64,000 bases of DNA, from positions 1,086-65,085 of IMG/VR virus record IMGVR_UViG_3300008110_000072; one strand, given 5' to 3'. Within the stretch, counting starts at the first letter, position 1, and every line of letters begins with the position of its first letter. The notes beneath the pieces were generated by a model. That model was not told the DNA's origin and did no database searches. It worked only from the letters and a program-made list of their open reading frames with translations. The stretch comes from a virus. Lineage: Duplodnaviria > Caudoviricetes. Made by a program: the position numbers and the translations under genes. Positions 7,120 through 56,336 of the stretch are shown piece after piece.

Positions 7120-7514
7120 TGGAAAAGCAAATCAAACAAGTGGCAGCGTTTCACCGCGCCTTCGGACATCCGGTGGCATCATCGCTCAAGCATCTCACTC
7201 CGGATAGGCTTGTGCTGCGGCACACGCTGCTCACAGAGGAGGCAATGGAGATGCTCCAAGCGGGCGTAAAGGGCGACCTTGTAGGCGTGGCAGACGCGAT
7301 TACGGATTGCTTGTATATCTTGTTTGGAACGGCTCACGAATACGGCTTGGGCGATAAGCTTTGCAGGCTTTTTGAAGAAGTGCATCGCAGCAACATGAGC
7401 AAGTTAGATTCTGTTGGCATGCCGATATACAGAGAGGACGGGAAGGTGATGAAGAGCGACCAGTATAGGCCACCGAATCTAAAGGATATTGTCTGGGATG
7501 ATTCGGATGTATAA
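7119..7514 (+). CDS. MazG-like (PRA-PH/YcdX-type) NTP pyrophosphohydrolase
   Basis: FHRAFG, EEAMEM, DAITD, EVHRSNMSK, REDGKVMK. Confidence 0.85.
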   Translation: MEKQIKQVAAFHRAFGHPVASSLKHLTPDRLVLRHTLLTEEAMEMLQAGVKGDLVGVADAITDCLYILFGTAHEYGLGDKLCRLFEEVHRSNMSKLDSVGMPIYREDGKVMKSDQYRPPNLKDIVWDDSDV

Positions 7515-7547
7515 TAAAAAAGGGCAGCCCGTTTGGGCCGCCCTTCA
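7515..7547. terminator. Terminator between convergent units
   Basis: AAAAAAGGGCAGCCC-GTTT-GGGCCGCCCTT; T-run on the minus strand. Confidence 0.65.
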
Positions 7548-7570
7548 CACATGCAGAGGCGTGTAGCCTC

Positions 7571-7816
7571 TCACCACCACTTCATTTGTTTCTCGTATAG
7601 ATAGAGGCTGTGCGTAAGCGCACACGCAAGTATCCACACAAAGCTGCCCCCCATCAAGAAGATGTGGACATCCACACAGCAATCCTGCCATAGAGGCTCA
7701 CGCAGGAGCGTGTTGTTTGTGCCGTGCAGGTAGAGCAATACACCATATCCGATGCCCCCAATAATGGCGCAAGCGATAGATGCGATTCTGTAAAATTTAA
7801 TCATAATCATAAACAC
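7571..7816 (-). CDS. Small membrane protein
   Basis: Two hydrophobic helices; last ORF of the early region. Confidence 0.5.
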   Translation of the reverse strand: MFMIMIKFYRIASIACAIIGGIGYGVLLYLHGTNNTLLREPLWQDCCVDVHIFLMGGSFVWILACALTHSLYLYEKQMKWW

Positions 7817-7840
7817 TTATGTAAATATAATAGAATAAAA

Positions 7841-7880
7841 CATAGGTGATGCAAATCGCGTGATAATGGCATCACCTATG
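7841..7880. other. 12-bp inverted repeat (hairpin)
   Basis: CATAGGTGATGC..GCATCACCTATG, intergenic. Confidence 0.55.
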
Positions 7881-8027
7881 TATGTGTATGTCAGCTTAAT
7901 CGTTTGTCAATAAAGTCCTTTGCATACTTGATTGGAATGAATAAGCTGATGCCGCCAACCCATAGCAGTGCTAATGTGTTTCCCCAGAAAATCAGCACCA
8001 GAAAAAGCAATAAGCATATATACAATT

Positions 8028-8228
8028 TCATGGCTTCGGAGTTACGCGGGTGATTTCCTCCCACCGGAGGAGAAACGACTTACGGATGCCATTGCATGAT
8101 ATGTTTACGCCACGCCCGCTCTTGTCGTATCCGTACACAATGCTTTTGCTCCGGTGCGGACGATACGCAATTTGGATTTGGAAATGCACCACATCTCCTA
8201 TCCGGACATTCTCTTGTGTATACATCAT
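8028..8228 (-). CDS. Hypothetical early protein
   Basis: Start overlaps the stop of 8225-8482 (ATGA-type coupling). Confidence 0.5.
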   Translation of the reverse strand: MMYTQENVRIGDVVHFQIQIAYRPHRSKSIVYGYDKSGRGVNISCNGIRKSFLLRWEEITRVTPKP

Positions 8229-8482
8229 TTCCGTGAGTTGTATATGGTGGCCTTGCATAGGTGTATGTCCACGAGTGCGTTGTATAGCATGTCTTCCTGC
8301 TGCGTCTCAAATCCAGTGATGCTTGGCACTTTGAATTCCCAATAGCGCCCACGCCTTTTGAGCGGGAGCGCCTTGCTTGGGTTGTCGGGCATTGTATACC
8401 ACCACCGCCCACGGGTGTGCGCGCTTGCACGCTGAAGCTTGGTAATGCTGTCGCTTGGTTTGATGATTATATCTTCTTTCAT
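8225..8482 (-). CDS. Hypothetical early protein
   Basis: 4-bp overlap coupling with 8479-8748. Confidence 0.6.
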   Translation of the reverse strand: MKEDIIIKPSDSITKLQRASAHTRGRWWYTMPDNPSKALPLKRRGRYWEFKVPSITGFETQQEDMLYNALVDIHLCKATIYNSRK

Positions 8483-8748
8483 TTTTTTCTTCTGTATTCG
8501 TTATACATCTCTGTCCACTTGGCAAGTTCCTCATGCCCGCGCTCGGCTGCAATCCATCCGGATAGGTCGCGCACATCGAAATAATACTTGTCAAGCACAT
8601 TGTCTGCGATTCCGGTTTGCGATATTGCATGCGTGCATAGCATCTCCATGTCCTTTGTAGCCTCGCTCCCGTCAAGCGGGAGATTGCTCAGAAGCCTATA
8701 CAACATCTGTCGGGCAAGGCTTGTATAATACTTTGGAGATTTGTTCAT
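8479..8748 (-). CDS. Hypothetical early protein
   Basis: 4-bp overlaps on both sides. Confidence 0.65.
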   Translation of the reverse strand: MNKSPKYYTSLARQMLYRLLSNLPLDGSEATKDMEMLCTHAISQTGIADNVLDKYYFDVRDLSGWIAAERGHEELAKWTEMYNEYRRKK

Positions 8749-8930
8749 GGACGGCTGATTTTAAATGAAACATTAACAATCTTGTTCGCTCCGTGCCGCA
8801 TCACCTTGTTGTGATACATGTCAAGAACGCACACGCTCTTGTCTGTCTTCTTGAATACAATCTGCGGCCTATGCTTGCGGTTGTAGACAATAGACCCGAT
8901 TGGGATTTCTCCCCATTTTAGTTGGTTCAT
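8745..8930 (-). CDS. Hypothetical early protein (MNQLKWG...)
   Basis: ATG 16 nt after tRNA-like element 1; the longer ORF-track start runs through the repeat. Confidence 0.6.
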   Translation of the reverse strand: MNQLKWGEIPIGSIVYNRKHRPQIVFKKTDKSVCVLDMYHNKVMRHGANKIVNVSFKISRP

Positions 8931-8946
8931 ATATATTTTGGTTTGG

Positions 8947-9039
8947 TAATCTGCCAATATCGGCATTGCTCCGGAGGCGGGAATCGAACCCGCCCTCACA
9001 TACGCATTTAGCGTATCTGACATGCCACATGTCTCCGGA
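8947..9039 (-). ncRNA. tRNA-like element 1 (near-cloverleaf) plus downstream hairpin
   Basis: TCCGGAG..GCGGG-TTCGATT-CCCGC-CTCCGGA-GCAA-TGCCGATATTGGCA-GATTA, with two internal hairpins. Confidence 0.75.
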
Positions 9040-9047
9040 TGCGGGGA

Positions 9048-9443
9048 TTATATATCCCCAATAAATTTGCGAGCGCCAGAAGCCTCCAGATATAACGACC
9101 TTGCGCCCTCGGTCATGTTATCGTAGTCCGCCTTGAGGATGTGTGCCACGCAATGCTCCCACCACTCCAACTGCGGCTTGTCGCCCACATATACCACCTG
9201 CTCAAATATCCGTGCGCTGTATCCCTTTTCCGATGTCTTGGTTATAGTGCCAACTATATACTTATGGTTGCCACCTATAAACCCACTATCCAAACCACGC
9301 AAGAATTGCAGCTTATTGTGCATGTCTTCGTGGTTGGTTATTTCCACGCCTGTGTAGTTGAACTTGATGCTGCTATCGGTGGTTGGATAATACACCATGC
9401 CGTAGCTGAATTTGTCCTGCGATTGCTCTTTTAAGTTTTCCAT
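9048..9443 (-). CDS. Hypothetical early protein
   Basis: 131-aa ORF; stop 8 nt before element 1. Confidence 0.7.
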   Translation of the reverse strand: MENLKEQSQDKFSYGMVYYPTTDSSIKFNYTGVEITNHEDMHNKLQFLRGLDSGFIGGNHKYIVGTITKTSEKGYSARIFEQVVYVGDKPQLEWWEHCVAHILKADYDNMTEGARSLYLEASGARKFIGDI

Positions 9444-9484
9444 TTGTATAAAGTGTTAAAGTGTGAATTGTAAATGTCTGAATA

Positions 9485-9531
9485 AAATTTGATTTGTCCA
9501 AAAAAAATAAATTTGATTTGTCCAAAAAAAA
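9485..9531. repeat. Tandem duplication of about 24 bp in an A-tract intergenic region
   Basis: AAATTTGATTTGTCCAAAAAAAA occurs twice. Confidence 0.7.
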
Positions 9532-9638
9532 TATTTGTTCAGCCCGAAAAAGAAATCGTTTGCCGAAAAATACCTTTGGTAAAAAACAAGGCGGGGGCAA
9601 AAATTTTCGCAAGGAAAAAATCTGCCCCCTACCTGCAT

Positions 9639-9929
9639 CTATATGCGTGTCCAAGTTAGCTGCGCATCACGCCACGCATCATCCTCATCGGTTTTCCACG
9701 AGAAGTATAAAGTTTCGGTGAGAGGCTCGAAGCGTATATCGGTTTCCGGCTTAATGTGCAAGAATTCCGTGCCGTAGTGGTCGCACAGCAATTGCTGTAT
9801 TTGAAATGCGGCATTGCGTTCATCGTTGTCCGCTTTCATGTTGAGAACGCCTATCAGGTCGCCCTCATCGCTCCATAGCGCAGGGATGCTTCCGGAAATG
9901 CGCCTAATCATAATGCTTGGTTTGTTCAT
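9639..9929 (-). CDS. Hypothetical early protein
   Basis: MNKPSI start 1 nt after the upstream stop. Confidence 0.6.
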   Translation of the reverse strand: MNKPSIMIRRISGSIPALWSDEGDLIGVLNMKADNDERNAAFQIQQLLCDHYGTEFLHIKPETDIRFEPLTETLYFSWKTDEDDAWRDAQLTWTRI

Positions 9930-9930
9930 A

Positions 9931-10122
9931 TTAGATATACGGATTTGGTTGTAAAACATTTATTGCGTTATCGAGTGCCTGTATAGCATCCCATAGGTAT
10001 GCCTCTGTGGCCTCCTCCTTCACCACGCCTTTTTCGGGGTGGAGGTTTTGCTGCAAAACGGCAAGGTTGTTTTTGAGCATATACAATTCCTGAATTGTAT
10101 CGTGTAATTGCTGTGGTGTCAT
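9931..10122 (-). CDS. Hypothetical early protein
   Basis: MTPQQ start with TATACAC leader. Confidence 0.55.
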   Translation of the reverse strand: MTPQQLHDTIQELYMLKNNLAVLQQNLHPEKGVVKEEATEAYLWDAIQALDNAINVLQPNPYI

Positions 10123-10133
10123 GTGTATACGAA

Positions 10134-10391
10134 TTAAATTACTGGTAAAACATATTCTTCTCCGGATGCAGATGCCCCGCACATCGCACCCCCATCATTG
10201 CCCTCGTCATCACGCATCGGGAGTATATAGCTGCCATCCGTGAATATAATCACCGGTGGGTTGCAATACCACGCCATGCCCCTCATCTCCTCGTCTGTGA
10301 GATAGCGCACCTCTGCAATGGTTTTGCCTACGAGCGTTTTGTTTGCAAGGTCAATCCAACGCTTGCGTACATCAAACTTTTGTGTGTTCAT
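10134..10391 (-). CDS. Hypothetical early protein (LVGKTI..PMRDDEGNDGGA type)
   Basis: ATG 16 nt after element 2; sequence resembles a recurrent small phage protein type. Confidence 0.7.
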   Translation of the reverse strand: MNTQKFDVRKRWIDLANKTLVGKTIAEVRYLTDEEMRGMAWYCNPPVIIFTDGSYILPMRDDEGNDGGAMCGASASGEEYVLPVI

Positions 10392-10407
10392 ATAAACTTT
10401 GTATAAG

Positions 10408-10484
10408 TAATCTGCCATATGGCATTGCCCCGGATGAGGGAATCGAACCCTGCGTATGTATACGCCCGCCTCTCGGCATCCGGC
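10408..10484 (-). ncRNA. tRNA-like element 2 (divergent)
   Basis: CCGGATG..AGGG-TTCGATT-CCCT-CATCCGG-GGCAA-TGCCATATGGCA-GATTA. Confidence 0.7.
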
Positions 10485-10492
10485 TGTGTATA

Positions 10493-10987
10493 TTAGCTAT
10501 GCATGTCTACAAACACCACCCAACGCTCGCCCCCCTCGTGTATGTAATCATCCACTTGTGTAACACCAGTGTGGTCAAAGTGGCAATAGTAGAAGTTATC
10601 GCGTAATACATCAAACCCGATTGCGCTCCCGCCTCGCCCATGTGTTTGGCACAGATATTCGGCTAAGTGTTTTAAACTCCATAATTCATAGTTATCCCAT
10701 TCATATATGTTGGTTTCGCCCGCTCTAAATTTGTCTGCCGCCACATTCCCATATCCCTCGTCTGCAAACCATGTTTTATAAATATTGTTGCAGTCGTCTA
10801 TGGTCATGTTTTCTTTTGGCTGATAGCGACCCTCTCCCGTGCTGTATACGGAATTGCTTTGGCTTACAGCCCCACACATCTCTCTCCAATTGTTTTCGTT
10901 GCCCCAATCAGATATAAAGGTTGTGGCTCTTTCGCACGCTTCTGCTCCTGAGTTAGCGTGCAACACGATGAAATGTAAATTGTGCAT
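10493..10987 (-). CDS. Hypothetical early protein (ends VFVDMHS)
   Basis: Bounded by elements 3 and 2. Confidence 0.7.
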   Translation of the reverse strand: MHNLHFIVLHANSGAEACERATTFISDWGNENNWREMCGAVSQSNSVYSTGEGRYQPKENMTIDDCNNIYKTWFADEGYGNVAADKFRAGETNIYEWDNYELWSLKHLAEYLCQTHGRGGSAIGFDVLRDNFYYCHFDHTGVTQVDDYIHEGGERWVVFVDMHS

Positions 10988-11003
10988 ATAAACTTTGTAT
11001 AAG

Positions 11004-11070
11004 TAATCTGCCATATGGCATTGCTCCGGAGGCGGGAATCGAACCCGCCTTTACGCCCTTGCGCTCCGGA
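11004..11070 (-). ncRNA. tRNA-like element 3
   Basis: TCCGGAG-CGCAAGGGCG-TAAAG-GCGGG-TTCGATT-CCCGC-CTCCGGA-GCAA-TGCCATATGGCA-GATTA. Confidence 0.8.
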
Positions 11071-11076
11071 TGTGTC

Positions 11077-11460
11077 TTACGCCCCTCCCAACATGCGCCT
11101 TTCATGCGCCTCGTATCTTGCATCTATATACGCTTGGCGCTCGTATTCCCGCACCTGCTGCGCCTCGTCTGGATACTCCGCACGGAAGTAGTCCCAATTT
11201 ATTTCGTCCACTACGCTCCTGCCATTGCATCGGTTGCACATTACATGGAAGTTGCCCGCATCGTAATCCTGCAAGCCCTCCCAATCGCCCTCCTCACGCA
11301 TGGTGTCGAGCATCTTCTGCTCGTCCAATCCGTATTCAAAGACGATTCCCTCGCCATTGCACTCAGGGCATAGTATACGCTTAGCGGGCAGGTAGATGGT
11401 GCGTGGCGTGTCTGTAATCTCGCAGTACAGCGCAGGGTGTGTAAATGCTACTTTTTTCAT
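11077..11460 (-). CDS. Zinc-finger protein (two CxxCxG motifs)
   Basis: CPECNGEG and CNRCNGR; bounded by elements 4 and 3. Confidence 0.7.
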   Translation of the reverse strand: MKKVAFTHPALYCEITDTPRTIYLPAKRILCPECNGEGIVFEYGLDEQKMLDTMREEGDWEGLQDYDAGNFHVMCNRCNGRSVVDEINWDYFRAEYPDEAQQVREYERQAYIDARYEAHERRMLGGA

Positions 11461-11476
11461 ATATGTTTTGCTTGTA

Positions 11477-11545
11477 TAATCTGCCGATATTGGCATTGCT
11501 CCGGAGGCGGGAATCGAACCCGCCTTTACGCCCTTGCGCTCCGGA
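11477..11545 (-). ncRNA. tRNA-like element 4
   Basis: Same core as element 3; hairpin TGCCAATATCGGCA. Confidence 0.8.
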
Positions 11546-11552
11546 TAGCATT

Positions 11553-11942
11553 TTACATGCTGTATACGCGGAATCCACCGCCAGTGCCGAGTACATGGTC
11601 GCGCCATGCCTCGCAATTCTCCTTGCCCACCCAATTCACCATCTTGCGCACCTCGTCCACAGACATACGCACCGGAGCGTTCTCGCCCTCGTCATTGCTG
11701 CCTATAATCACTCCGTTGCCGCATATCGGGTAAGCCCAATCGGACATTATATATCCGCCCTCAAACTCGTTATACAAGCCCTCGTCATCAACAAACAGCG
11801 TGTCGCTCTCGTTGAATTGCACGGGGCAAGCGAATGTGCTTACGCCCTCTCCGAGCAGGGGATATATGTCCCGATGATTTGTGCCGCTGATTTCGGCCTC
11901 GTACACTTCGCGCTTTGCGCTGTCAATCACAATCACTTTCAT
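11553..11942 (-). CDS. DUF3846-like protein
   Basis: MKVIVID..LFVDDEGL..PICGNGVIIG..EGE pattern. Confidence 0.7.
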   Translation of the reverse strand: MKVIVIDSAKREVYEAEISGTNHRDIYPLLGEGVSTFACPVQFNESDTLFVDDEGLYNEFEGGYIMSDWAYPICGNGVIIGSNDEGENAPVRMSVDEVRKMVNWVGKENCEAWRDHVLGTGGGFRVYSM

Positions 11943-11955
11943 AAATATATATTGG

Positions 11956-12210
11956 TTAAAATTTGCCTGAGTTGTTATATGCCCAATCGTGAACAAACTC
12001 GTGAATTGCATCTTGCACCTCGTCGAGGTCGAGCACTTCGTCATCGTCCGTATAGTTGCTCTCCCAATCAATGCGCTCGTCATAGTTATCTATCCGGTGT
12101 GTAATGGTGAGGGATAATTCCACCTCTTTGCTGCCGTATACAAGAACGGCCTCTAAGCTTATGCGCTTGGTTGTCCCAACCAACTCCGCATCGTTTACGA
12201 TTATTTCCAT
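11956..12210 (-). CDS. Acidic hypothetical protein
   Basis: ATG with ACACAC leader; D/E-rich. Confidence 0.65.
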   Translation of the reverse strand: MEIIVNDAELVGTTKRISLEAVLVYGSKEVELSLTITHRIDNYDERIDWESNYTDDDEVLDLDEVQDAIHEFVHDWAYNNSGKF

Positions 12211-12217
12211 GTGTGTG

Positions 12218-12424
12218 TTAGTAAGTTATTTCTTGAATTTTCTTTACGGCCTCTTGTATAATCTGCTCGTCAGTGCGCTTGTCCATTGCCTTGTATAGCG
12301 TGTCTGCACACTGGTCATAAACCCCCCAAATCAGGGGGGCTTTGGCGTTATACATTTTTATCATCGCTCTGTCAGCGCAGAAATTGCGCAAGCCTCGCAG
12401 GTCGTGGATTAGGTGTGGGTACAT
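12218..12424 (-). CDS. Hypothetical early protein (MYPHLIH...)
   Basis: Starts 1 nt after the upstream stop. Confidence 0.55.
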   Translation of the reverse strand: MYPHLIHDLRGLRNFCADRAMIKMYNAKAPLIWGVYDQCADTLYKAMDKRTDEQIIQEAVKKIQEITY

Positions 12425-12425
12425 A

Positions 12426-12638
12426 TTATTTTGCGTGAGTTTTGATTGTGCCTTCGATACTTTCCCATGCACGAGATACGGCATACGATTCATCAACATC
12501 GCTGAACATGACATCGCTATATGCGTGTCCGTAGTAGCGGTCGAGCCATTGGTGTTGGTCTTGCGGAAGGATTGACTTTGCCCGCTGCACTTCGTAATTG
12601 AGCGCTCTGAGTGTGGTGGGGGGATTTGTAGGTAACAT
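12426..12638 (-). CDS. Hypothetical early protein (MLPTNPP...)
   Basis: ATG 23 nt after element 5. Confidence 0.55.
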   Translation of the reverse strand: MLPTNPPTTLRALNYEVQRAKSILPQDQHQWLDRYYGHAYSDVMFSDVDESYAVSRAWESIEGTIKTHAK

Positions 12639-12661
12639 AAGCGTAAATTGTTTTGTGTGTA

Positions 12662-12730
12662 TAATCTGCAAAATTGCATTGCTCCGGAAGCGGGAATCGA
12701 ACCCGCCATATACGCCCTTGCGTTTCCGGA
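12662..12730 (-). ncRNA. tRNA-like element 5
   Basis: Compensatory acceptor TCCGGAA/TTCCGGA; hairpin TGCAATTTTGCA. Confidence 0.8.
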
Positions 12731-12745
12731 GGTGGGCATCACGCC

Positions 12746-12964
12746 CTATAACCCATTGAACTCTTTGTTTTCGCCCACCATTCTGCGGAGGTAGTGATTC
12801 ATGGTGTTGCATAGCACCTCAGCCATATGCACCCATTCAAGTTCAGGCTCAGATTCATGCACGGAGGCAAAGTCGTTATACATGAGGCGGCACACAATAT
12901 CGCCCGAAGGATTTTTTACAAGGATTTCTCCTTTAAGGAACGGATTTTTTTCGTATGTATACAT
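12746..12964 (-). CDS. Hypothetical early protein
   Basis: Bounded by elements 6 and 5 (alternative start 12970). Confidence 0.6.
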   Translation of the reverse strand: MYTYEKNPFLKGEILVKNPSGDIVCRLMYNDFASVHESEPELEWVHMAEVLCNTMNHYLRRMVGENKEFNGL

Positions 12965-12979
12965 AAACATTTGGTTTGG

Positions 12980-13048
12980 TAATCTGCCATATGGCATTGC
13001 TCCGGAAGCGGGAATCGAACCCGCCATATACGCCCTTGCGTTTCCGGA
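12980..13048 (-). ncRNA. tRNA-like element 6
   Basis: Core identical to element 5; hairpin TGCCATATGGCA. Confidence 0.8.
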
Positions 13049-13055
13049 TGCGCCC

Positions 13056-13286
13056 TCAGCTAGGGCTTGTATAGAAGTGTGCAAGTGCAATCGCTGCCAC
13101 CTTGCTGATGTTGCGCCTTATGCCCACCACTTGTATGAGTGCGGGGAGCGACAGGTCTTTACACACCTCGGCAAAGGCCATGCCCTCTGCAAGCTTGTGT
13201 ATAGGATTGGCGTTGGCAGGAAGCGAGTTCTTGCGTAGGTGTGCCACCACTGCGGGGGTGAGCATGCCGTGTTCTGTGTAGGTCAT
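13056..13286 (-). CDS. Hypothetical early protein (MTYTEHG...)
   Basis: Downstream of a consensus promoter; stop 7 nt before element 6. Confidence 0.6.
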   Translation of the reverse strand: MTYTEHGMLTPAVVAHLRKNSLPANANPIHKLAEGMAFAEVCKDLSLPALIQVVGIRRNISKVAAIALAHFYTSPS

Positions 13287-13318
13287 GTGTATAAACGACA
13301 AAGTGTGAAACGAAAGGA

Positions 13319-13351
13319 CAAATGTAATGTGGCGGGAAAACGAAATGCAAA
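13319..13351 (-). promoter_or_regulatory. Bacteroidota sigma-70-type promoter
   Basis: TTTG-N21-TACATTTG, with upstream A/T tracts. Confidence 0.75.
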
Positions 13352-13452
13352 TTTTTTTTCGACAAAAGCCGGAAAAAGTTTCGATTTGCTGCTTATTATC
13401 TAAGATAAAGGATGCGAAAAAATTTTTTACAATTTTCATTTTGCTCCTTACC

Positions 13453-13623
13453 TCAGTCTGCATCCCTCTCGTGATACAGCAGGAGCGCAGCCATTGCGCT
13501 GTATACGCAAAGGAAGAAGCACTCAGCCACGATATATTCCGGGCTGATATACATCAGGACAAGGGTGAAAAATACGGCTACAACGCACAGAAACGCGAGG
13601 CCATTGCGGAGAAAGTTAGGCAT
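13453..13623 (-). CDS. Small two-TM membrane protein
   Basis: Hydrophobic; ATG 18 nt after element 7. Confidence 0.6.
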   Translation of the reverse strand: MPNFLRNGLAFLCVVAVFFTLVLMYISPEYIVAECFFLCVYSAMAALLLYHERDAD

Positions 13624-13641
13624 GTGTATATAATTTGTGTA

Positions 13642-13715
13642 TAATCTGCGCACCATTACGCATTGCTCCGGAGGCGGGAATCGAACCCGCCTTGTATACG
13701 CCCTTGCGCTCCGGA
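13642..13715 (-). ncRNA. tRNA-like element 7
   Basis: Core as element 3; hairpin variant TGCGTAATGGTGCGCA. Confidence 0.8.
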
Positions 13716-13724
13716 TGTGGGGTG

Positions 13725-14015
13725 TTACCCCATATAGCTGGTATCAAACCCGTTATTGCGTAAGCAATCTAAAATGCATTCGGGAAGAGAAAACACGCCA
13801 TCGTAATCAACCAACATCTTGTTTTCATCAAACCATAGGCCGCCCTCCGCATACCACTCGCCACCGCCCGTGGCTATGTCATACATTTCAAACCACCCGT
13901 AGGAGTTATCCTCCCGCACACCCACCTCCACACGGAGTGTAACCTCCTCATGTTTAAGCGTGCCAAATGAGTTTTCTAATGACAAATGCTCCACCGCTTC
14001 GAATATAAATTCCAT
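13725..14015 (-). CDS. Acidic hypothetical protein (YAEGGLWF..LVDYDGVFSLP)
   Basis: Bounded by elements 8 and 7. Confidence 0.7.
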   Translation of the reverse strand: MEFIFEAVEHLSLENSFGTLKHEEVTLRVEVGVREDNSYGWFEMYDIATGGGEWYAEGGLWFDENKMLVDYDGVFSLPECILDCLRNNGFDTSYMG

Positions 14016-14035
14016 AACTTTTTTTGGTTTGTGTA

Positions 14036-14124
14036 TAATCTGCAAAATTGCATTGCTCCGGAGGCGGGAATCGAACCCGCTATACAGCACACACACACAA
14101 GGCTGTATACGCCAACGCTCCGGA
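14036..14124 (-). ncRNA. tRNA-like element 8
   Basis: Core plus inserted helix TATACAGC..GCTGTATA with a (GT)n loop. Confidence 0.8.
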
Positions 14125-14134
14125 TGTGTGGGGC

Positions 14135-14458
14135 TTAGCGCCCCTCTTCGGTTTCCGTTATCCGGATGATTTCAAGCGGGTGCATGGTGTTTGTATATCC
14201 ACTGATACTTTGGCCGTTGTATACATCGTTTTTAACTATGCTAATAGTTAAGTGTCTGTTGTTATACCAAAGTTTGTAGTAATATTTTGTGCCAATTAAC
14301 AGGCCGTGCAATTCACTTGCAAGGGCAAGGCCACGCGACATTCCATGACACGCTGATTCGTGTAGGTGTTGGTATTCAAACAGCAGGGAAATAATTCCTT
14401 TGATTGGCTGCTCTTTAAGAGCGCTTGTTGTAAGGCCGACTAATTTAGCTTGTAACAT
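14135..14458 (-). CDS. Hypothetical early protein
   Basis: MLQAKL start; stop 10 nt before element 8. Confidence 0.55.
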   Translation of the reverse strand: MLQAKLVGLTTSALKEQPIKGIISLLFEYQHLHESACHGMSRGLALASELHGLLIGTKYYYKLWYNNRHLTISIVKNDVYNGQSISGYTNTMHPLEIIRITETEEGR

Positions 14459-14491
14459 AATTGTATACGAAGTATAAGAGTGAAACAAAAA

Positions 14492-14722
14492 TTAACGGAT
14501 AACTACGGCTGTGTTGGTTTCATCATGTGTATACAACACGGGGATGGTGTCGCCTACATGATAGGCCGTGTCAATGTGCAGGGCGTATACAACACCCCCT
14601 CCCAGAGGGCGCACAATACGCTTGCAATTGTGTGGACGCTTGATTGTGGCAAGCGGGGTGTGTGATTGCTCACATGATGCGAGAGATGCGAGGGCGAGGA
14701 CGAAAACGATAGCTTTGAACAT
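14492..14722 (-). CDS. Small putative lipoprotein
   Basis: Signal peptide MFKAIVFVLALASLAS-C with lipobox-like LASC. Confidence 0.65.
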   Translation of the reverse strand: MFKAIVFVLALASLASCEQSHTPLATIKRPHNCKRIVRPLGGGVVYALHIDTAYHVGDTIPVLYTHDETNTAVVIR

Positions 14723-14739
14723 ATATATTTTGGTTTGTA

Positions 14740-14816
14740 TAATCTGCCATATGGCATTGCTCCGGAGAGGGGATTCGAACCCCTATACAGCTATGCTGTA
14801 TACGCCTTGCTCCGGA
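14740..14816 (-). ncRNA. tRNA-like element 9
   Basis: Compensatory T-stem AGGGG-TTCGAAT-CCCCT; helix TATACAGC-ATA-GCTGTATA. Confidence 0.8.
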
Positions 14817-14828
14817 GGGCGGAACGGG

Positions 14829-15689
14829 CTATTGCCCGTCTTCGATAAGTCCCGCTGCTTTGAGCATGTCGGGCAAGTTCCATGTGTTGCGATTTGTCAT
14901 CGTGATGGGCGAGATGATGATTTCGTCATTCTTGCGCTCCACAGAGGGCGTGTTTGTGTTCAGGAAGTGCTTGTGTGTGTCGTGCCACGCACAGAACCCG
15001 CACTCCTCACCGAGGGCTGTGCCAGTCATGCCCATAAGCATGGCGCGGTTCATGGGTGTGCTGAGTGCGCTGACGAGTGTATACGGGTCGAGAGGCTGCC
15101 CATAATCGCATACATTGATTTTCCACAAATAATGCCACCGCTTGCCGTTGCCATGAGCATCACCGCCCCACTCAAATATAATGCGAACATTATATTTCGC
15201 GAGGGCTGCCGTATACAAGTCGGCAATCATCATATATTTTTCGGTTGCCTCACGAGCATCCACACCTGCTGACATGCCGTGTATAACGCGGATGGTGAGG
15301 TTGGACTTTATACATTCTTCGGGCTGAATTGTATAGAAGCACTCAGGCTGACCTTGCATGTATGCATCCACATCGAGAATTTCTCCGCATGTGTCCCGCA
15401 CAAAATTCATTTCGTGCGAGGGGCTTGCCGGAATATTAAGTTCCGAAGGCTTGTATAATTTCTGCACATCGGGCAATGCCCCACCATAGGTGTTAAGGTG
15501 CATCAGCATTGTTTCGGCTGTCTTGTATATGCCTGCACCCACCCAATCGCCCTGCCATGCACGGCGTATGTGTTCGGAAATATTGGGTAGAACATTGCTA
15601 ATCAGGTCTTTATACGACATTTCTGCGTTTTGCGGCAAGCCCGTAGCGGTGGGCTTGCTTGCGTTGCGGGTGTTAGTGCGCTTTGCCAT
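14829..15689 (-). CDS. Partner of the AAA+ ATPase (CobT/vWA-like, degenerate)
   Basis: Directly downstream of the ATPase; DVDAYMQGQPECF motif; K..GQPLD segment. Confidence 0.5.
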   Translation of the reverse strand: MAKRTNTRNASKPTATGLPQNAEMSYKDLISNVLPNISEHIRRAWQGDWVGAGIYKTAETMLMHLNTYGGALPDVQKLYKPSELNIPASPSHEMNFVRDTCGEILDVDAYMQGQPECFYTIQPEECIKSNLTIRVIHGMSAGVDAREATEKYMMIADLYTAALAKYNVRIIFEWGGDAHGNGKRWHYLWKINVCDYGQPLDPYTLVSALSTPMNRAMLMGMTGTALGEECGFCAWHDTHKHFLNTNTPSVERKNDEIIISPITMTNRNTWNLPDMLKAAGLIEDGQ

Positions 15690-15713
15690 GTGTGTGTTAT
15701 ATGTGTGAGGAAA

Positions 15714-16910
15714 TTATTTGCGAAGGTTCTGTGGAAGGTTTGCCTCAATCGCACGCTTGTATACAACGCTTGCGTCATATCCGAGGCTGAAAAGCTTCTC
15801 AACACGCTGAATATCACGCATCGACATTATCCAACCTGACTTGCCGGCAAGCCTATCGCGCTCAGCCCACACCATTTCACACGCTTGCTTGCTGAAGCGT
15901 GCAGCCTCCAGTGTGCGGTCGTATCCTGCGAATATACACACGAGGCGATTTTTGGCCGATGCATCGAGCGGGTTACGGCCTACATACGCCTCCGTAGCGC
16001 CATTGCCGAAGGTGTTGGCTGTGGCTATACAGATGAAATCAGGATGCTTTTTCACCATGCCACACGGGAATGCAGCCGTGTCATTTGCGAGACACATGTT
16101 TAAGGAACACAGCAAGTTAGGGTTTGCATTGTCGGCTTCATCGAGCATGAAAATCCCGCCCTCGCTATACATGCGGTAGAACTCCGTGGGTATGTATTCA
16201 CCCGTGATTGGCGACATCATGCCAAATAGCTCACTTTTAAGCGATTGCGAAGAAAACGACATGGCTGCAAACGGCCTGCCAAGCGCCTCCGCCACTTGCT
16301 TGCCTATGTGTGATTTGCCTGTGCCTGCGGGGCCGTGTATATACACATGCTCGTTGAGATTCACCCACTCCAACACCTCGGCAAAAGCCTCGTGTGTAGC
16401 GCCTACGCTGTGTGAGGTTTCGTCAAGCCTCCGGACGACGATTTCTAAAGCCGAAGGCTTCGGCGCGTGGATGTGTATAAGCTTGCACACCTGCTCGATT
16501 TGCTCGTCTGACAAGGTGTTGGAGGGCTGACTTGACACGCCTAACAAGCTTATAGCTTGCTGCATCAAAGTGGCTGCCGTTACGGCTGAATCGGTTGCGG
16601 GGACAGCACCTTGTGCCGTGGCCGCTACATGTGTGTTTGACATATGTGTGTGTGTTGGAGATACATTTTCAACGGCCTCTGAAACAGCTACGCTGTTCGC
16701 AGGCGCTTTCTTGCGGGCTGCTACGATTGCCTGTGTAAGGGCAACTTTGCCGGATTGCGTTTTGTGGCATGTAATGCCAAGCGCGCTACAAACCTGCCGG
16801 AAATCGGCAAATTCGCCGGATAATTTATTATCCGTTGCCCACATTTGGGCTGTTTGAGATTGTGAAGGGACACGGAGCATCCCGATGCGAGTGTTGTGTG
16901 TGTTGGACAT
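15714..16910 (-). CDS. MoxR/CobS-like AAA+ ATPase
   Basis: Walker A GPAGTGKS, Walker B MLDEAD, KHPDFICIATANT, LDASAKNR. Confidence 0.85.
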   Translation of the reverse strand: MSNTHNTRIGMLRVPSQSQTAQMWATDNKLSGEFADFRQVCSALGITCHKTQSGKVALTQAIVAARKKAPANSVAVSEAVENVSPTHTHMSNTHVAATAQGAVPATDSAVTAATLMQQAISLLGVSSQPSNTLSDEQIEQVCKLIHIHAPKPSALEIVVRRLDETSHSVGATHEAFAEVLEWVNLNEHVYIHGPAGTGKSHIGKQVAEALGRPFAAMSFSSQSLKSELFGMMSPITGEYIPTEFYRMYSEGGIFMLDEADNANPNLLCSLNMCLANDTAAFPCGMVKKHPDFICIATANTFGNGATEAYVGRNPLDASAKNRLVCIFAGYDRTLEAARFSKQACEMVWAERDRLAGKSGWIMSMRDIQRVEKLFSLGYDASVVYKRAIEANLPQNLRK

Positions 16911-16957
16911 GTGTTAGTGTGTGTGTTTCGAGGGCTGCCGACTGCCGGAAGCCGCTG

Positions 16958-16991
16958 CAAATATACGGCGAATCCGGTGCTGAAAGTCAAT
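16958..16991 (-). promoter_or_regulatory. Putative promoter of the early operon
   Basis: TATATTTG -7 box at 16958-16965 with ATTG about 22 nt upstream, then A/T tracts. Confidence 0.6.
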
Positions 16992-17468
16992 AGCCATGTA
17001 AGAAAATCCGATAAAGTGCAGCATTTTTTGGACGAGGGAAAAAGGTATACATAGTATAAAGGGCGAAAAATCGGCTGGTGGAAATTGAAAAAAAGTGAAT
17101 GGCATGTAAGGTTATTTCCTCTGATTTTGGCTGTCAGCGGCCTTCGCGCGTGATGTATACGCGACATATACGCGTGATGTATACGCTATACGCACGCGTT
17201 GCACGGCCTGTGCAGCGTGTTTCGTGTGGCGTGTGCTGTGCAAACGGGCTGTGTACGGATGCTCAGCGGGTGTTATACGCCACCCAGTATACGGCTAAAG
17301 TGTTGATGCTCAGCGGTTTCGGTTTCGGGTTTCCGCTTGCGTATACGCAGGACAGCGTAGCTGTTTCGTGTGCTGTGCTGCGTGGCGGGATTGTATACGG
17401 GTACACGGGTGTGGGATTCGCGTTCCGGGCGGCGCGCGCACGCGGGGGCGCTGGGGGGGGAACCCTCA

Positions 17469-17520
17469 TTCCATATATCCATACGCATTTCTGATTCCAT
17501 ACATCCATACGCATTCTTGA
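17469..17520. repeat. 26-bp tandem repeat x2
   Basis: TTCCATATATCCATACGCATTTCTGA / TTCCATACATCCATACGCATTCTTGA. Confidence 0.75.
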
Positions 17521-17726
17521 TAGCACATCCGCCCACATCGCTTCGCCGGTGTTCCGTAGGGGGTACACGGCTTAGGGCATTCACTTTGCGTGTGTAAGAC
17601 ATGCGCGGGGGCGTGTAAGAATCATGTAAGAACCTGCACACTTTTTAGGTATAATTTCATATAGATAGAATAGATAGAGAGGGGTGGTGTAAATAGGTGT
17701 TTTATAACAAGTTACGAAGATAGAAC

Positions 17727-55000: not shown

Positions 55001-56336
55001 TGTAGGCGTAAGCGGCCCAGCAGGAACAACAGGAACGCTTGTGTTTCGTAGTTCTGCTAATGTTGGACGCACAATTATTCAAGCGGCAAGCACACCAGCA
55101 GCTACAGATATTTTTTACTATCTACCTTCAGGACAAGCAACCGGAGCGGGTCAAATCCTTGCCAATGACGGCAGCGGGAATCTCTCATGGACGGCAGCAG
55201 GAGCGGGGAATATGATATTGGCTTCTACGCAAACAAACACAGGGGCTAAAACATTCAATTCAGGAACATTAGTTCTTGCTGGAGCCAGTTCAGGAACTAC
55301 AATCTTGAACGCCTCTGCTACAGCATCAGGAACTGTTACACTGCCCGCCTTAACAGGAACTGTAGCCCTTCTTGAAAACACCCAAACATTTACAGGAGCG
55401 AAGATATTTGATGGAACAGGCGGAACAATAACATTTAGTCGTGCCGCTTCTTCTGGCTCTGCCATAACTATTTCAGGACAAGGAACCCAAATAACGCCCC
55501 AAGTGGTCTTTTCGGGAGCTACAATGAACTGGATAAATTTTGGGAGTAATGGCCTCGATGCGCCTACTCACACGGGAGCAGCGGGGGCATCAAGGAGTGC
55601 AGGAACTAAGATAGCGATACGTCCGGTTAACGGAGCGTCCTCTCTTGATAACGCAATTGGAATGGAGAACGCAGGAATGTGGCTTTCGGGGTTCAGCGGA
55701 ATCAGGTTTTATCCAGACAGCTCAACAACGGCTGCTGGACAATGGAAATATGTCGCTAGCAGTGTTAGGGGGATAGAGCTGAATGCTCCATCCGAAACAA
55801 GCAATATAACAACGCCTCAACTGCTTATTTCGGGCTCAAACGCTCAATGGATGAATTTAAGTGGAGCAAATGGTGCACCAGCAGTCTCACAATCAAGGTC
55901 TGTTGGGACTAAAATTGTGCTTAGATTGAATACGGGAACTTTAATTGATGGAGCAATAGGATTTGACAACGCATCCGGCCCTTGGATTTGCTCAAACTCA
56001 AACATAGACTTTTATGCAGGAAGTGTTGCATCTGTAACGGGCAGATTTAGCTCTGCTGGATTAACGCTCCCCACAGTAGGCACCGGTATTTTAATTAAGG
56101 AAGGCACTAATGCTACAATGGGGGTAACAGCGGCTATGACCGCAGGGACCATTACTGTTAGCACAACAAAGGTGACAACAAATTCACGAATATTTTTGAC
56201 AGCACAAACAACAGGAGGAACACCGGGAGCGTTAAGAGTTAGCGCAAGAACCGCTGGAACAAGTTTTACAATAACATCTTCTTCTACAGCAGACACATCA
56301 ACCGTAGCTTGGATAATTATAGAACCAGCCCCTTAA
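52044..56336 (+). CDS. Tail fibre protein
   Basis: 1430 aa G/T/S/A-rich; GGELQGNYPNP, P.FRA repeats, QTLTNKTL, YTLPS, GNLSW. Confidence 0.85.
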   Translation: MPTFLDDLANYNAKASLAISNAVADGSVEKANMMSSLKTVANDTTLDEDVRLKALTTLINVGNLLDAPIPPYFPLTQTYANALTYAGIHNELEGLNEGDYQHLTESEKSSLLNKASLSDITWANLQGSYTNNIPFAAILDGKQAALSGTGYVKANGLNITYDNSTFLTDVTGILVGAAAGGELQGNYPNPTLNGLSVIGKVLTGFTGAAMPITPILASDSILSAIQKLNNNIANLSSNPSGVSTVALTNNASSVFSTTTAAQGGPAATLNISLQTQNKNLFLASSSTTNGQVPAFRAIQVDDLPATGNPATTIGGSTTIPVIAIDAKGRVTSLTSAAAATGGIVNTVNMTVPSNSPTIFTATGGGSSSTVNVGFGLATQVKNTFFAGPATGSNATPQFRALQLSDISFDIPYTQVGGLKDQLDLKLGVGLGTSQILIGNGSLQAAQAKVGGDLEVYYDTIQDTNTAVFTIKSSSVTYSKFQNIPSSAGNAIRPILLGRFYAGQGEMQELTLSSDFTLNPISGQIGLLTPNPPALNDVGDLLTSTGANVLTRLSLPQPNNDGYLLMPYAAAANPACGLIWGEVMGDISYTVDNTTTPGTPFGAFSIGANKVTLSKIQTIDDQRILGNISGGAAIPAELTPQQVVDMLPLQDALSGTTKGVVPPSNFTPASGYTKDDYFLTANNGWSLGGGGGGGTPGGAAWQFQYNDNGTAFAGSANLAATNAGDVLATSGYFGIVDDATTPTVGVYISAPDVTVAGLDWSIPATNANDIFVGEAFQQTLTNKTLNSPIIGTGAGQGHLHLHTINNNPPISPTADYITLFADDSPKRVGFQFGLDGFASYFQFDATATSKTYTFPDATGTVALIDASNVLNIPKLGSTSGAIALGGGTSGTITLQAPATVTAGQDVYTLPSTYPGAASGWFLTSNLSGGLSWVSVTGGGDVTSTATGTPQGNFAVFDSNTGKVITTSSVASLGASPSGRATFNNGVDVGVSGPAGTTGTLVFRSSANVGRTIIQAASTPAATDIFYYLPSGQATGAGQILANDGSGNLSWTAAGAGNMILASTQTNTGAKTFNSGTLVLAGASSGTTILNASATASGTVTLPALTGTVALLENTQTFTGAKIFDGTGGTITFSRAASSGSAITISGQGTQITPQVVFSGATMNWINFGSNGLDAPTHTGAAGASRSAGTKIAIRPVNGASSLDNAIGMENAGMWLSGFSGIRFYPDSSTTAAGQWKYVASSVRGIELNAPSETSNITTPQLLISGSNAQWMNLSGANGAPAVSQSRSVGTKIVLRLNTGTLIDGAIGFDNASGPWICSNSNIDFYAGSVASVTGRFSSAGLTLPTVGTGILIKEGTNATMGVTAAMTAGTITVSTTKVTTNSRIFLTAQTTGGTPGALRVSARTAGTSFTITSSSTADTSTVAWIIIEPAP

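What the first reader, a model, noticed from the sequence alone, without database searches (positions are those of the whole stretch)
8947..14816. Nine anticodon-less tRNA mimics punctuate the early operon: candidate phage 'tRNA-punctuation' system
Seen: nine sense-strand (minus) intergenic elements at 8947, 10408, 11004, 11477, 12662, 12980, 13642, 14036 and 14740. Consensus: TCCGGAG-[variable hairpin(s)]-GCGGG-TTCGATT-CCCGC-CTCCGGA-G-CAA. This gives a 7-bp acceptor-like stem stacked on a 5-bp/7-nt T-arm with tRNA geometry, but with CAA instead of CCA and usually no anticodon arm. Pairing is kept by compensatory changes: acceptor GAG/CTC to GAA/TTC in copies 5-6; T-stem AGGGG/CCCCT in copy 9; CCGGATG/CATCCGG in copy 2. 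Every copy begins 6-15 nt after a stop codon, and the next ATG lies 15-23 nt after its end. Established: RNase P and RNase Z recognise the acceptor+T-arm coaxial helix (mascRNA, tmRNA tRNA-like domain, mitochondrial tRNA punctuation), and T7 uses RNase III sites to cut its early transcript. Inference: host tRNA-processing enzymes cut the early polycistron into short mRNAs and release about 50-70-nt tRNA-like RNAs, which could also act as decoys for tRNA-binding or tRNA-targeting defence proteins. I do not recognise this as a described phage element.
Basis: partly seen in the sequence, partly recalled or inferred. Interest (0 to 1): 0.93.

Follow-up and report, generated by a model that had tools for sequence, protein, structure and literature searches.

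The report
tRNA-like punctuation elements in phage operon
A phage of Bacteroidota-type bacteria separates many of its small early genes with conserved mimics of the upper half of a tRNA, most likely so that the host's tRNA-trimming enzymes cut the long transcript into separate messages, something known from mitochondria but apparently not described for phages.

Summary
Nine minus-strand intergenic elements lie at 8952-14816, against 0.00 expected by chance. Each has a 7-bp acceptor stem, a variable inner hairpin and a 5-bp T stem with a canonical T loop, then N73-CAA. A second covarying hairpin and an A-rich leader follow, ending at the next ATG.

I found 40 distinct copies of this type in the window, two IMG/VR phages and freshwater metagenome contigs. 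Four related phage records hold 18 more with 13 different acceptor sequences. All keep a 12-bp acceptor+T coaxial stack and N73-C(C/A)A.

Pairing is kept by compensatory changes and G-U pairs, with almost no A-C. The elements are non-coding and always sense-oriented. They sit at 9 of the 12 long gene junctions of an operon that has its own promoter-like and terminator sites. Rfam has no match, ARAGORN of 9 a tRNA, and four literature searches found no phage precedent.

Best reading (about 0.5): sites for host RNase P, with or without RNase Z, analogous to plant-mitochondrial t-elements.

The parts
14745..14816 (-). tRNA-like element 1. Acceptor TCCGGAG/CTCCGGA, inner hairpin, T arm AGGGG-TTCGAAT-CCCCT, then G-CAA and 3' hairpin TGCC-ATAT-GGCA. 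The upstream hairpin at about 14821-14838 holds the stop codon.
   Evidence: MFE -29.5 kcal/mol, z -3.03; 77.4 bits
14041..14124 (-). tRNA-like element 2, with a long inner hairpin whose loop is a (GT)n run. T arm GCGGG-TTCGATT-CCCGC, then G-CAA and 3' hairpin TGCA-ATTT-TGCA.
   Evidence: z -2.18; 80.2 bits
13647..13715 (-). tRNA-like element 3. The 3' hairpin is 6 bp and includes a U-G pair (TGCGTA-ATGG-TGCGCA).
   Evidence: z -2.29; 91.6 bits
12985..13048 (-). tRNA-like element 4, with compensated acceptor TCCGGAA/TTCCGGA.
   Evidence: z -2.49; 91.8 bits
12667..12730 (-). tRNA-like element 5. It is nearly identical to element 4 apart from a different 3' hairpin.
   Evidence: z -2.25; 90.4 bits
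11482..11545 (-). tRNA-like element 6, the short form with a 15-nt variable region.
   Evidence: z -2.69; 83.8 bits
11009..11070 (-). tRNA-like element 7, short form.
   Evidence: z -2.70; 88.2 bits
10413..10484 (-). tRNA-like element 8. It has an 8-bp acceptor (CCGGATG/CATCCGG type) and a 4-bp T stem, so the 12-bp stack is kept. The first position is a G-G mismatch.
   Evidence: z -1.32, the weakest; 79.8 bits
8952..9039 (-). tRNA-like element 9, the most complete cloverleaf, with D-like and anticodon-like arms. ARAGORN calls it tRNA-Phe (AAA). The loops of its counterparts in related phages differ, so it is a degenerate pseudo-tRNA.
   Evidence: z -3.74; 75.5 bits
7519..7546 (-). Strong intrinsic terminator (12-bp stem followed by a T run) that ends the minus-strand operon.
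13319..13351 (-). Promoter-like site inside the operon: TTTG, 21 nt, TACATTTG. This matches the Bacteroidota -33/-7 consensus as I recall it. It lies in a 166-nt AT-rich gap that has no element.
   Evidence: the consensus is recalled, not tested
16958..16990 (-). Promoter-like site upstream of the first gene of the operon: TTG, 22 nt, TATATTTG.
   Evidence: the consensus is recalled, not tested
9444..9638 (-). 195-nt AT-rich gap without an element. It holds a terminator-like hairpin with a T run (9632-9609 and tail), followed by a direct repeat.

Best explanation
The nine elements are tRNA-derived mimics of the upper half of a tRNA, embedded in the sense strand of polycistronic transcripts of a 9.4-kb operon of small genes. 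The upper half is the acceptor stem stacked on the T arm, with a canonical T loop and N73.

Proposed mechanism:
1. Host RNase P recognises the 12-bp acceptor/T helix and cuts at the 5' end of the acceptor stem.
2. Because the tail is CAA rather than CCA, RNase Z may also cut after G73.
3. The upstream mRNA is left ending shortly after its stop codon, often just behind a GC-rich hairpin that would block 3' exonucleases.
4. The downstream mRNA begins with CAA followed at once by a hairpin, a 5'-terminal stem-loop that would hinder 5'-end-dependent decay. An A-rich leader of about 22 nt then runs to the ATG.
5. A 60-90-nt tRNA-like RNA is released at each site.

Shown here: the structure, its conservation and covariation, its position and orientation, and its restriction to one phage clade. 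Inferred: that the operon is transcribed as long RNAs, every cleavage step, and the protective role of the flanking hairpins.
For: 1. The elements are real and non-random: 9 matches against 0.00 expected.

2. The geometry is tRNA-like in 40 distinct copies.
- Acceptor pairs: 275 Watson-Crick, 4 G-U, 0 A-C and 1 mismatch of 280.
- T-stem pairs: 190 Watson-Crick, 1 G-U, 1 A-C and 8 mismatches of 200.
- Nine copies are unpaired at 49:65 (8 mismatches and the one A-C). Eight of these gain an eighth acceptor pair instead, so the 12-bp stack is kept.
- T loop: TTCGATT 32, TTCGAAT 7, TTCAAAT 1. N73: G 37, A 3. CAA: 40 of 40.

3. On alignment A1 (39 of the 40 copies; one at a contig edge was skipped), 98.3% of cells pair against 90.5% in shuffles. 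The covariation score is 0.210 against 0.060, reached by 0 of 500 shuffles, and the slid controls pair only 41-61%. RNAalifold recovers the acceptor, T stem and 3' hairpin by itself.

4. Four related phage records hold 18 more elements with 13 different acceptor 5' strands, for example CCCCTGC, AGCACG, TTCCGG and AGCCAGT. The stems split 7+5, 6+6 or 8+4, always 12 bp, followed by N73 and then CCA (10), CAA (7) or CTA (1). The detector behind these counts requires pairing, so the pair counts are not independent evidence. The diversity of the sequences is.

5. G-U is tolerated and A-C almost never, and all copies are sense to the flanking ORFs. Both point to selection on the transcribed RNA.

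6. The elements are non-coding: the frame offsets to the next ATG are 17/11/11.

7. Of 23 gene junctions, 9 carry an element (gaps 85-119 nt), 11 are short (-4 to 33 nt) and 3 are long AT-rich gaps with promoter- or terminator-like sites. A strong terminator closes the unit. The elements are therefore not needed as promoters or terminators.

8. The inner hairpins keep their pairing through compensatory changes at corresponding junctions, for example AGC/GCT against AAC/GTT and CAGC/GCTG against CGGC/GCCG.

9. Precedent: plant-mitochondrial t-elements carrying the same GGTTCRANYCC motif direct RNase P and RNase Z cuts that create mRNA ends (PMC1920247, passages read).

10. The elements persist where the genes do not. 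G003 (TerL 84% identical) shares none of the 24 operon proteins at E < 1e-4, yet has 13 T-loop elements in 4.5 kb.
Against: - There is no RNA evidence of any kind.
- Nucleotide -1 is A in 32 of 40 copies and U in only 2. As I recall, E. coli-type RNase P prefers U(-1).
- CAA keeps only one of the two C residues that pair with bacterial RNase P RNA (recalled). Relatives carry CCA (10 of 18), which from recall inhibits RNase Z. One enzyme scheme therefore does not fit all copies.
- Substrates lacking the D and anticodon arms are poorer RNase P substrates (recalled).
- The upstream protective hairpin is present in only 19 of 40 copies.
- The host, its RNases and the timing of expression are unknown.
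- The promoter calls rest on a recalled consensus.
- Within one genome the copies resemble each other more than their positional counterparts elsewhere (T stems are mostly GCGGG in the window, and GGGGG or GAGGG in other contigs). Some of the apparent conservation may therefore reflect gene conversion.
Confidence: 0.5

Rival explanations
1. The element acts in cis on the RNA and is cut on one side only, or not at all. It would stay attached as a tRNA-like 3' cap of the upstream mRNA, protecting it from exonucleases as plant-virus 3' tRNA-like structures do. Or it would stay as a structured 5' end or translation enhancer of the downstream mRNA.
For: - The spacing is tight on both sides: 0-17 nt from the stop codon and 14-31 nt to the ATG.
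- The A-rich leader with an AAACCAA-like box is conserved next to the element, even in related phages whose acceptor sequences differ.
- CCA-ending copies in G003 would resist RNase Z (for the counts; the inhibition is recalled).
Against: - The strict upper-half geometry and invariant T loop are exactly the part that processing enzymes read, and RNase P would be expected to cut any such structure.
- Nothing here distinguishes an attached element from a released one.
Confidence: 0.15
2. The elements serve mainly at the DNA level as repeated homology blocks. Recombination between them would shuffle small gene cassettes, as the PeSL promoter-terminator cassettes do in T4-type phages. Their RNA structure would be a relic of a tRNA origin.
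For: - Gene order and content between elements differ among relatives while the elements persist.
- Different element subtypes sit at corresponding junctions. Before the gene at 10987 the window has the short GCGGG type, whereas G001 and L065 have the CCGGATG type.
- Copies within one genome resemble each other.
- PeSLs are documented (PMC2839356 and PMC4122927; search listing and the start of the abstracts only).
Against: - Homology blocks need no base-pair covariation, no 12-bp stack rule, no G-U over A-C bias and no fixed strand relative to the genes. All of these are observed.
- In related phages the acceptor sequences are completely replaced while the pairing is kept.
- Recombination is more likely a side effect than the selected function.
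Confidence: 0.1
3. The released or embedded tRNA-like RNAs are themselves the product. They would be abundant mini-tRNAs that titrate or decoy host tRNA-binding factors such as modification enzymes, the CCA-adding enzyme, EF-Tu, aminoacyl-tRNA synthetases or tRNA-targeting defence nucleases.
For: - There are nine copies per genome, with a perfectly conserved T loop.
- In G003 all 8 elements with C73 have G at -1 and end in CCA. From recall, a G(-1):C73 pair is the histidine identity feature of bacterial tRNA-His and works in minihelices.
Against: - Eight of 9 copies lack an anticodon arm, so anticodon nucleases would not be decoyed.
- The fixed position at gene junctions and the conserved flanking hairpins and leader are not needed for a decoy.
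- No tRNA-related enzyme was found among the operon proteins examined (10 of 24 operon ORFs scanned against Pfam).
Confidence: 0.1
4. The element, or its 3' module of hairpin plus GATTA box, is a transcription signal. It could be a promoter for a phage RNA polymerase (N4-type hairpin promoter) or a terminator or attenuator, so that each gene is its own unit.
For: - A covarying hairpin with a conserved flank lies 14-31 nt before each ATG.
- The phage is distantly crAss-like (muzzle domain), and crAss-like phages inject an RNA polymerase (preprint 10.1101/2020.03.07.982082, passages read).
Against: - No DFDxD motif occurs in any of the five large ORFs checked, and no polymerase family hit was found.
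- The hairpin/GATTA module never occurs without the tRNA-like module in the genome.
- No T run follows either hairpin, and the terminator scan lists none of the elements on the sense strand.
- A DNA signal does not explain the acceptor covariation across a 15-40-nt variable insert or the tRNA-exact T loop.
- The same preprint reports that phi14:2 early transcripts have no common upstream motif.
Confidence: 0.07
5. The elements are decaying pseudo-tRNA genes, remnants of a former tRNA cluster, with no present function.
For: - The acceptor and N73 resemble tRNA-Asn genes picked up by the same pattern.
- One copy per genome still folds as a cloverleaf.
Against: - Decay would not preserve pairing by compensatory change, 40 of 40 CAA, the T loop, or a fixed position between ORFs across genomes whose genes are 30-80% identical or entirely replaced.
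Confidence: 0.03

Closest known systems
Plant-mitochondrial t-elements and the mitochondrial 'tRNA punctuation' model
   Same: Both are tRNA-like structures carrying the GGTTCRANYCC T-arm motif, embedded in mRNA precursors at gene boundaries. In mitochondria their ends coincide with mRNA ends made by RNase P and RNase Z (PMC1920247, passages read). The phage elements have the same motif, sit at gene boundaries and are not functional tRNAs.
   Different: The phage elements form a multi-copy family: 9 per genome at regular junctions of one operon in a bacterial virus. They are reduced to the upper half and have conserved CAA/CCA tails and dedicated flanking hairpins. Cleavage is not shown.
Phage T7 RNase III sites in the early polycistronic transcript
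   Same: Both are repeated structured RNA elements between early genes. In T7 a host RNase cuts them and leaves hairpin-protected ends (recalled knowledge, not checked here).
   Different: The enzyme would be different (RNase P/Z rather than RNase III) and so is the structure (a tRNA mimic rather than a long irregular duplex).
MALAT1 mascRNA and MEN-beta tRNA-like 3' elements
   Same: In both, a tRNA-like structure within a long transcript is used as an RNase P/RNase Z processing signal and releases a small tRNA-like RNA (recalled).
   Different: Those are eukaryotic nuclear lncRNAs with a single element at the 3' end. Rfam gives no match here.
PeSL cassettes of T4-type phages
   Same: Both are repeated composite intergenic cassettes in hyperplastic regions of small early genes, associated with cassette shuffling (PMC2839356 and PMC4122927, listing and abstract starts; shuffling here).
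   Different: PeSLs are a promoter plus a terminator stem-loop. The present elements are tRNA-shaped, show RNA covariation and have no promoter or terminator match on the sense strand.
tRNA-like domain of tmRNA
   Same: Both have an acceptor stem plus T arm without an anticodon arm. The only weak Rfam similarity is to the tmRNA T arm (11-14 bits).
   Different: There is no G3:U70 (position 3:70 is C:G in 40 of 40), no tag ORF and no pseudoknots. ARAGORN finds no tmRNA.

Membership tests
canonical tRNA gene | Cloverleaf with anticodon arm, detectable by tRNA finders | tested here: not met
   ARAGORN of 9 window copies (tRNA-Phe AAA, 8968-9039). It in L124-L127 and one doubtful tRNA-Arg in L064. 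Rfam has no tRNA match at gathering score.
canonical tRNA gene | 7-bp acceptor stem stacked on a 5-bp T stem with a T-loop consensus | tested here: met
t-elements / tRNA punctuation | Non-canonical tRNA-like structure with the GGTTCRANYCC motif inside an mRNA precursor, at a gene boundary | tested here: met
   The motif is present in 9 of 9 copies. All lie between sense ORFs, 6-15 nt after a stop codon. The motif definition comes from PMC1920247. That a precursor spans the junctions is inferred from the promoter-like and terminator sites.
t-elements / tRNA punctuation | mRNA 5' and 3' ends coincide with the ends of the element (RNase P and RNase Z cleavage) | not testable with these tools
tmRNA tRNA-like domain | G3:U70 alanine identity pair, tag reading frame and pseudoknots | tested here: not met
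   Position 3:70 is C:G in 40 of 40 copies. ARAGORN finds no tmRNA. Rfam tmRNA hits score 11-14 bits against gathering scores of 47-84.
PeSL-type promoter-terminator cassette | Repeated intergenic cassette in a region of shuffled small genes | tested here: met
PeSL-type promoter-terminator cassette | Contains an early promoter and a terminator-like stem-loop | tested here: not met
   The sigma-70/terminator scan lists no site on the minus strand inside any of the nine elements. Caveat: the scan does not model Bacteroidota promoters.
intrinsic terminator | GC-rich hairpin followed by a U run | tested here: not met
   The operon's own terminator lies at 7546-7519, and GAT plus A-rich sequence follows the element hairpins.
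N4/crAss-type virion RNA polymerase promoter | The phage encodes a virion RNA polymerase, and hairpin promoters sit upstream of early genes | tested here: inconclusive
   No D[FY]DxD motif occurs in the five large ORFs checked, and there are no polymerase hits in Pfam or PHROGs. A divergent polymerase cannot be excluded.
described Rfam RNA family | Match at gathering score to any of 4227 families | tested here: not met
   The only gathering-level hit in the window is abiF RNA at 62882-62918, which is unrelated.

The most novel reading that the evidence does not exclude
A clade of phages, probably infecting freshwater Bacteroidota, runs a true 'tRNA punctuation' system. Dedicated mimics of the tRNA upper half at gene junctions would recruit host RNase P (and RNase Z where the tail is CAA) to cut long transcripts into hairpin-capped mono- to tetracistronic mRNAs, releasing a family of 60-90-nt mini-tRNAs. 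This would be the first such system outside organelles. The released minihelices may have a second life: the G003 versions carry G(-1):C73 plus CCA, the histidine minihelix identity as I recall it. The conserved junction cassette would also serve as the recombination scaffold that lets the gene content turn over completely while the expression chassis stays.
Probability: 0.45. Interest if true: 0.9.

Novelty: new variant of a known kind. Interest (0 to 1): 0.8.

Why it matters
If cleavage is confirmed, mRNA punctuation by tRNA mimics would not be an organelle peculiarity. It would be a strategy that a bacterial virus evolved independently to exploit essential, hard-to-lose host enzymes (RNase P and RNase Z).

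It would bear on several questions:
- How phages of Bacteroidota, which lack Shine-Dalgarno-led translation, organise expression of rapidly shuffling accessory genes.
- What natural minimal substrates of bacterial RNase P look like, given 58 natural variants that share a 12-bp stack rule.
- Whether compact insulator or processing parts of this kind could be used for multi-gene constructs in Bacteroidota.

It also warns annotators that such elements are neither tRNA genes nor empty spacers.

Tried and rejected
- Rfam at gathering score and at E <= 1 gave no family. The best hits were T-arm fragments of tmRNA models and a plastid 3'UTR model on the opposite strand, at 23.6 bits against a gathering score of 68.
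- megablast of 8800-15000 against 50,697 phage records gave no match.
- The second viral contigs pattern (CCGGRGCAATGC...GCAGAT) returned 46 stretches. Apart from L001, L009 and L015, all (L020-L062) were chance matches in coding DNA.
- The genome-contig scan gave 2 single hits, both genuine tRNA-Asn genes inside tRNA arrays. The element is therefore not a cellular repeat.
- Coding potential was rejected. ORF finders extend some downstream ORFs into the element (for example the peptide AGSIPASGAM read through the T arm), but frame offsets are 17/11/11.
- A crAss-type virion polymerase was not found.
- More distant TerL relatives (L107-L112, 51-53% identity) and GenBank MW202828.1 have no upper-half elements in the stretches I held. 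G006 gave no model hit.
- The upstream stop-codon hairpin is not universal: 19 of 40 copies, mean z -1.29. I keep it as a frequent accessory only.
- Four literature searches found no report of tRNA-like punctuation in a phage. That is an absence in this library only. I did not ask for any paper's supplementary files.
- I did not run protein-database searches, structure prediction or complex prediction, because they do not bear on an RNA element.

Full report
**What the window is.** The window covers 64,000 of the 65,085 bases of a single-contig virus record that IMG/VR classes as having direct terminal repeats.
- It encodes a large terminase, a portal, a primase/helicase and a protein with a crAss 'muzzle' domain.
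- Its terminase is 23-26% identical to those of Flavobacterium, Cellulophaga, Tenacibaculum and Maribacter phages. A Bacteroidota host is therefore likely but not shown.
- A minus-strand unit of 24 small ORFs runs from 16910 to 7571 and ends at a strong intrinsic terminator at 7546-7519.
- Of 10 of its proteins scanned against Pfam, only an AAA_5 ATPase, DUF7192 (just under Pfam's cut-off: 26.3 bits against 27) and DUF3846 gave hits beyond stray sub-threshold ones. None is an RNA enzyme.

**The observation.** All nine elements exist at the stated places on the minus strand.
- A 28-nt pattern covering the T loop, the 3' acceptor strand and CAATGC matches nine times, against 0.00 in 100 shuffles.
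- A covariance model built later finds exactly nine copies in the genome.
- ARAGORN calls one of them a tRNA (Phe, AAA), and Rfam has no family for them.
- Each copy folds on its own into acceptor stem, inner hairpin(s), T arm and a separate 3' hairpin, with z-scores from -1.3 to -3.7.

**Anatomy.** In order it consists of:
1. The stop codon of the upstream ORF, often inside or next to a GC-rich hairpin (19 of 40 copies by my criterion).
2. A gap of 0-17 nt.
3. The acceptor 5' strand.
4. A variable region of 15-40 nt, with a small GG-containing hairpin and sometimes a long second hairpin.
5. The T arm.
6. The acceptor 3' strand.
7. N73, then CAA.
8. Immediately after, a hairpin with an invariant TGC/GCA base and covarying inner pairs (14 variants).
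9. GAT and an A-rich leader.
10. The ATG, 14-31 nt after the hairpin (mean 22.6).

The hairpin/GATTA module never occurs without the tRNA-like module in the genome.

**Relatives of the same type.** Pattern scans found the same element type in two IMG/VR phages and in six metagenome contigs, one of which duplicates another. The other hits were genuine tRNAs, mostly tRNA-Asn, whose acceptor stem the elements resemble.
- I parsed 40 distinct copies.
- Acceptor pairs: 275 Watson-Crick, 4 G-U, 0 A-C and 1 mismatch of 280.
- T-stem pairs: 190 Watson-Crick, 1 G-U, 1 A-C and 8 mismatches of 200.
- Nine copies are unpaired at position 49:65 (8 mismatches and the one A-C). Eight of them have an eighth acceptor pair instead, so the coaxial stack stays at 12 bp.
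- On the 39-sequence alignment, pairing and covariation exceed all 500 shuffles and all slid controls, and RNAalifold finds the same helices.
- Family copies score 62-101 bits with the model. Real tRNAs score at most 36 bits.

**Divergent relatives.** Phages related by terminase (81-84% identity) gave only weak model hits of 16-32 bits. Inspection showed the same architecture built from different sequences.
- A sequence-independent detector looked for a T-loop motif plus a 12-bp split stack. It found 8 of 9 copies in the window and at most 0.05 per shuffled control of any locus scanned (20 shuffles each).
- It found 11 in G003, 4 in G005, 1 in G007 and 2 in G002. It found none in six more distant loci (L107-L112) or in MW202828.1.
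- The 18 additional elements use 13 different acceptor 5' strands, split 7+5, 6+6 or 8+4. They are followed by N73 and then CCA (10), CAA (7) or CTA (1), and usually by a hairpin and an AAACCAA-type leader.
- In G003 all 8 elements with C73 have G at -1.
- None is called a tRNA or matches Rfam.

**Context.** Of the 23 junctions in the operon:
- 9 carry an element (gaps 85-119 nt).
- 11 are short or overlapping (-4 to 33 nt).
- 3 are long AT-rich gaps (166, 195 and 80 nt) without an element.

One long gap contains TTTG-21 nt-TACATTTG, which fits the Bacteroidota promoter consensus as I recall it. Another has a hairpin with a T run. The elements are therefore embedded in transcription units that have their own start and stop signals. 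They are non-coding and always sense-oriented.

**Evolution.**
- Gene content and order between elements differ among relatives.
- G003 shares none of the 24 operon proteins at E < 1e-4, yet has 13 T-loop elements in 4.5 kb.
- Different element subtypes can sit at corresponding junctions, and copies within a genome resemble each other.
- The elements are thus the constant chassis of a hyperplastic region. Recombination between them probably contributes to cassette turnover, as described for PeSLs in T4-type phages (listing only).

**Interpretation.** The preserved features are those read by tRNA end-processing enzymes: a 12-bp acceptor/T helix, the T loop, N73 and a C74-containing tail. The anticodon domain has been lost or has degenerated. 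The closest documented analogue is the plant-mitochondrial t-element, defined by the same T-arm motif and shown to direct RNase P and RNase Z cuts that form mRNA ends.
- I therefore favour host RNase P cleavage at the acceptor 5' end, with RNase Z cleavage after N73 where the tail is CAA.
- The flanking hairpins would stabilise the new 3' and 5' ends.
- My confidence is about 0.5, because no RNA data could be obtained. Several details are not ideal for RNase P or are inconsistent for RNase Z: A at -1, and CAA in some genomes but CCA in others.
- The rivals cannot be excluded: a cis-acting cap or enhancer, a recombination scaffold, mini-tRNA decoys, a transcription signal, or relics. Each explains fewer of the observations.

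**Novelty.** Four full-text searches found no description of such elements in phages. The crAss-like phi14:2 study reports no common motif upstream of early transcripts. The principle is known from organelles and from MALAT1. Its use as a multi-copy system in a phage operon appears new, so I class it as a new variant of a known kind.

Noticed in passing
whole window; densest at 7501-17400: The palindromic hexamer GTATAC occurs 67 times against 9.8 expected (first-order Markov). In the small-gene operon it occurs 26 times against 2.0 expected. TATACA and TGTATA occur 108 and 106 times against about 17 expected. It is found in coding and non-coding DNA, in the inner hairpins of several elements, just upstream of many ATGs, and as a cluster of GCGTATAC boxes at about 17150-17400. 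It may be a binding site for a phage protein, but it remains unexplained.
   Followed up: partly
window 62882-62918 (+): The only Rfam match at gathering score in the window is abiF RNA (RF03085): 42.9 bits against a gathering score of 37. It overlaps the 3' end of a minus-strand 188-aa ORF (62886-63452).
   Followed up: no
L124 (G003) 8674-13150: All 8 elements with C73 in this related phage have G at -1 and end in CCA. That gives a possible G(-1):C73 pair, as in bacterial tRNA-His and histidine-accepting minihelices (the identity rule is recalled).
   Followed up: partly
window 14041-14124 (-); also L009 7548, L015 493, L064 2917, L065 1064: One element subtype has an inner hairpin whose loop is a conserved (TG)n run of about 10-13 nt. 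The stem shows a compensatory change, CAGC/GCTG against CGGC/GCCG.
   Followed up: no
window 9490-9560 (-): A direct repeat of about 23 nt (T-run-GGACAAATCAAATTT, two copies) lies between a terminator-like hairpin and the gene at 9443. A similar AT-rich control region at 13290-13450 is conserved in G001.
   Followed up: no
window 17440-17540 (-): Two tandem copies of an approximately 25-nt motif (AATGCGTATGGAT.TATGGAAT) followed by a C/G-rich run lie in the divergent intergenic region between the minus-strand and plus-strand gene blocks. They could be an origin or a regulatory region.
   Followed up: no
window 52044-56336 (+): A 1430-aa protein ends in a K1 capsule-specific polysaccharide lyase C-terminal domain (PF24146, E = 4.5e-25). 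It is probably a tailspike with an intramolecular chaperone or depolymerase.
   Followed up: no
window 11009-11020 and 10413-10424 (-): In two copies the ATG inside the 3' hairpin (CATATGG) is in frame with the downstream ORF, giving a possible MADYLYKVY N-terminal extension. The frame is not kept in the other copies, so this is probably fortuitous.
   Followed up: partly
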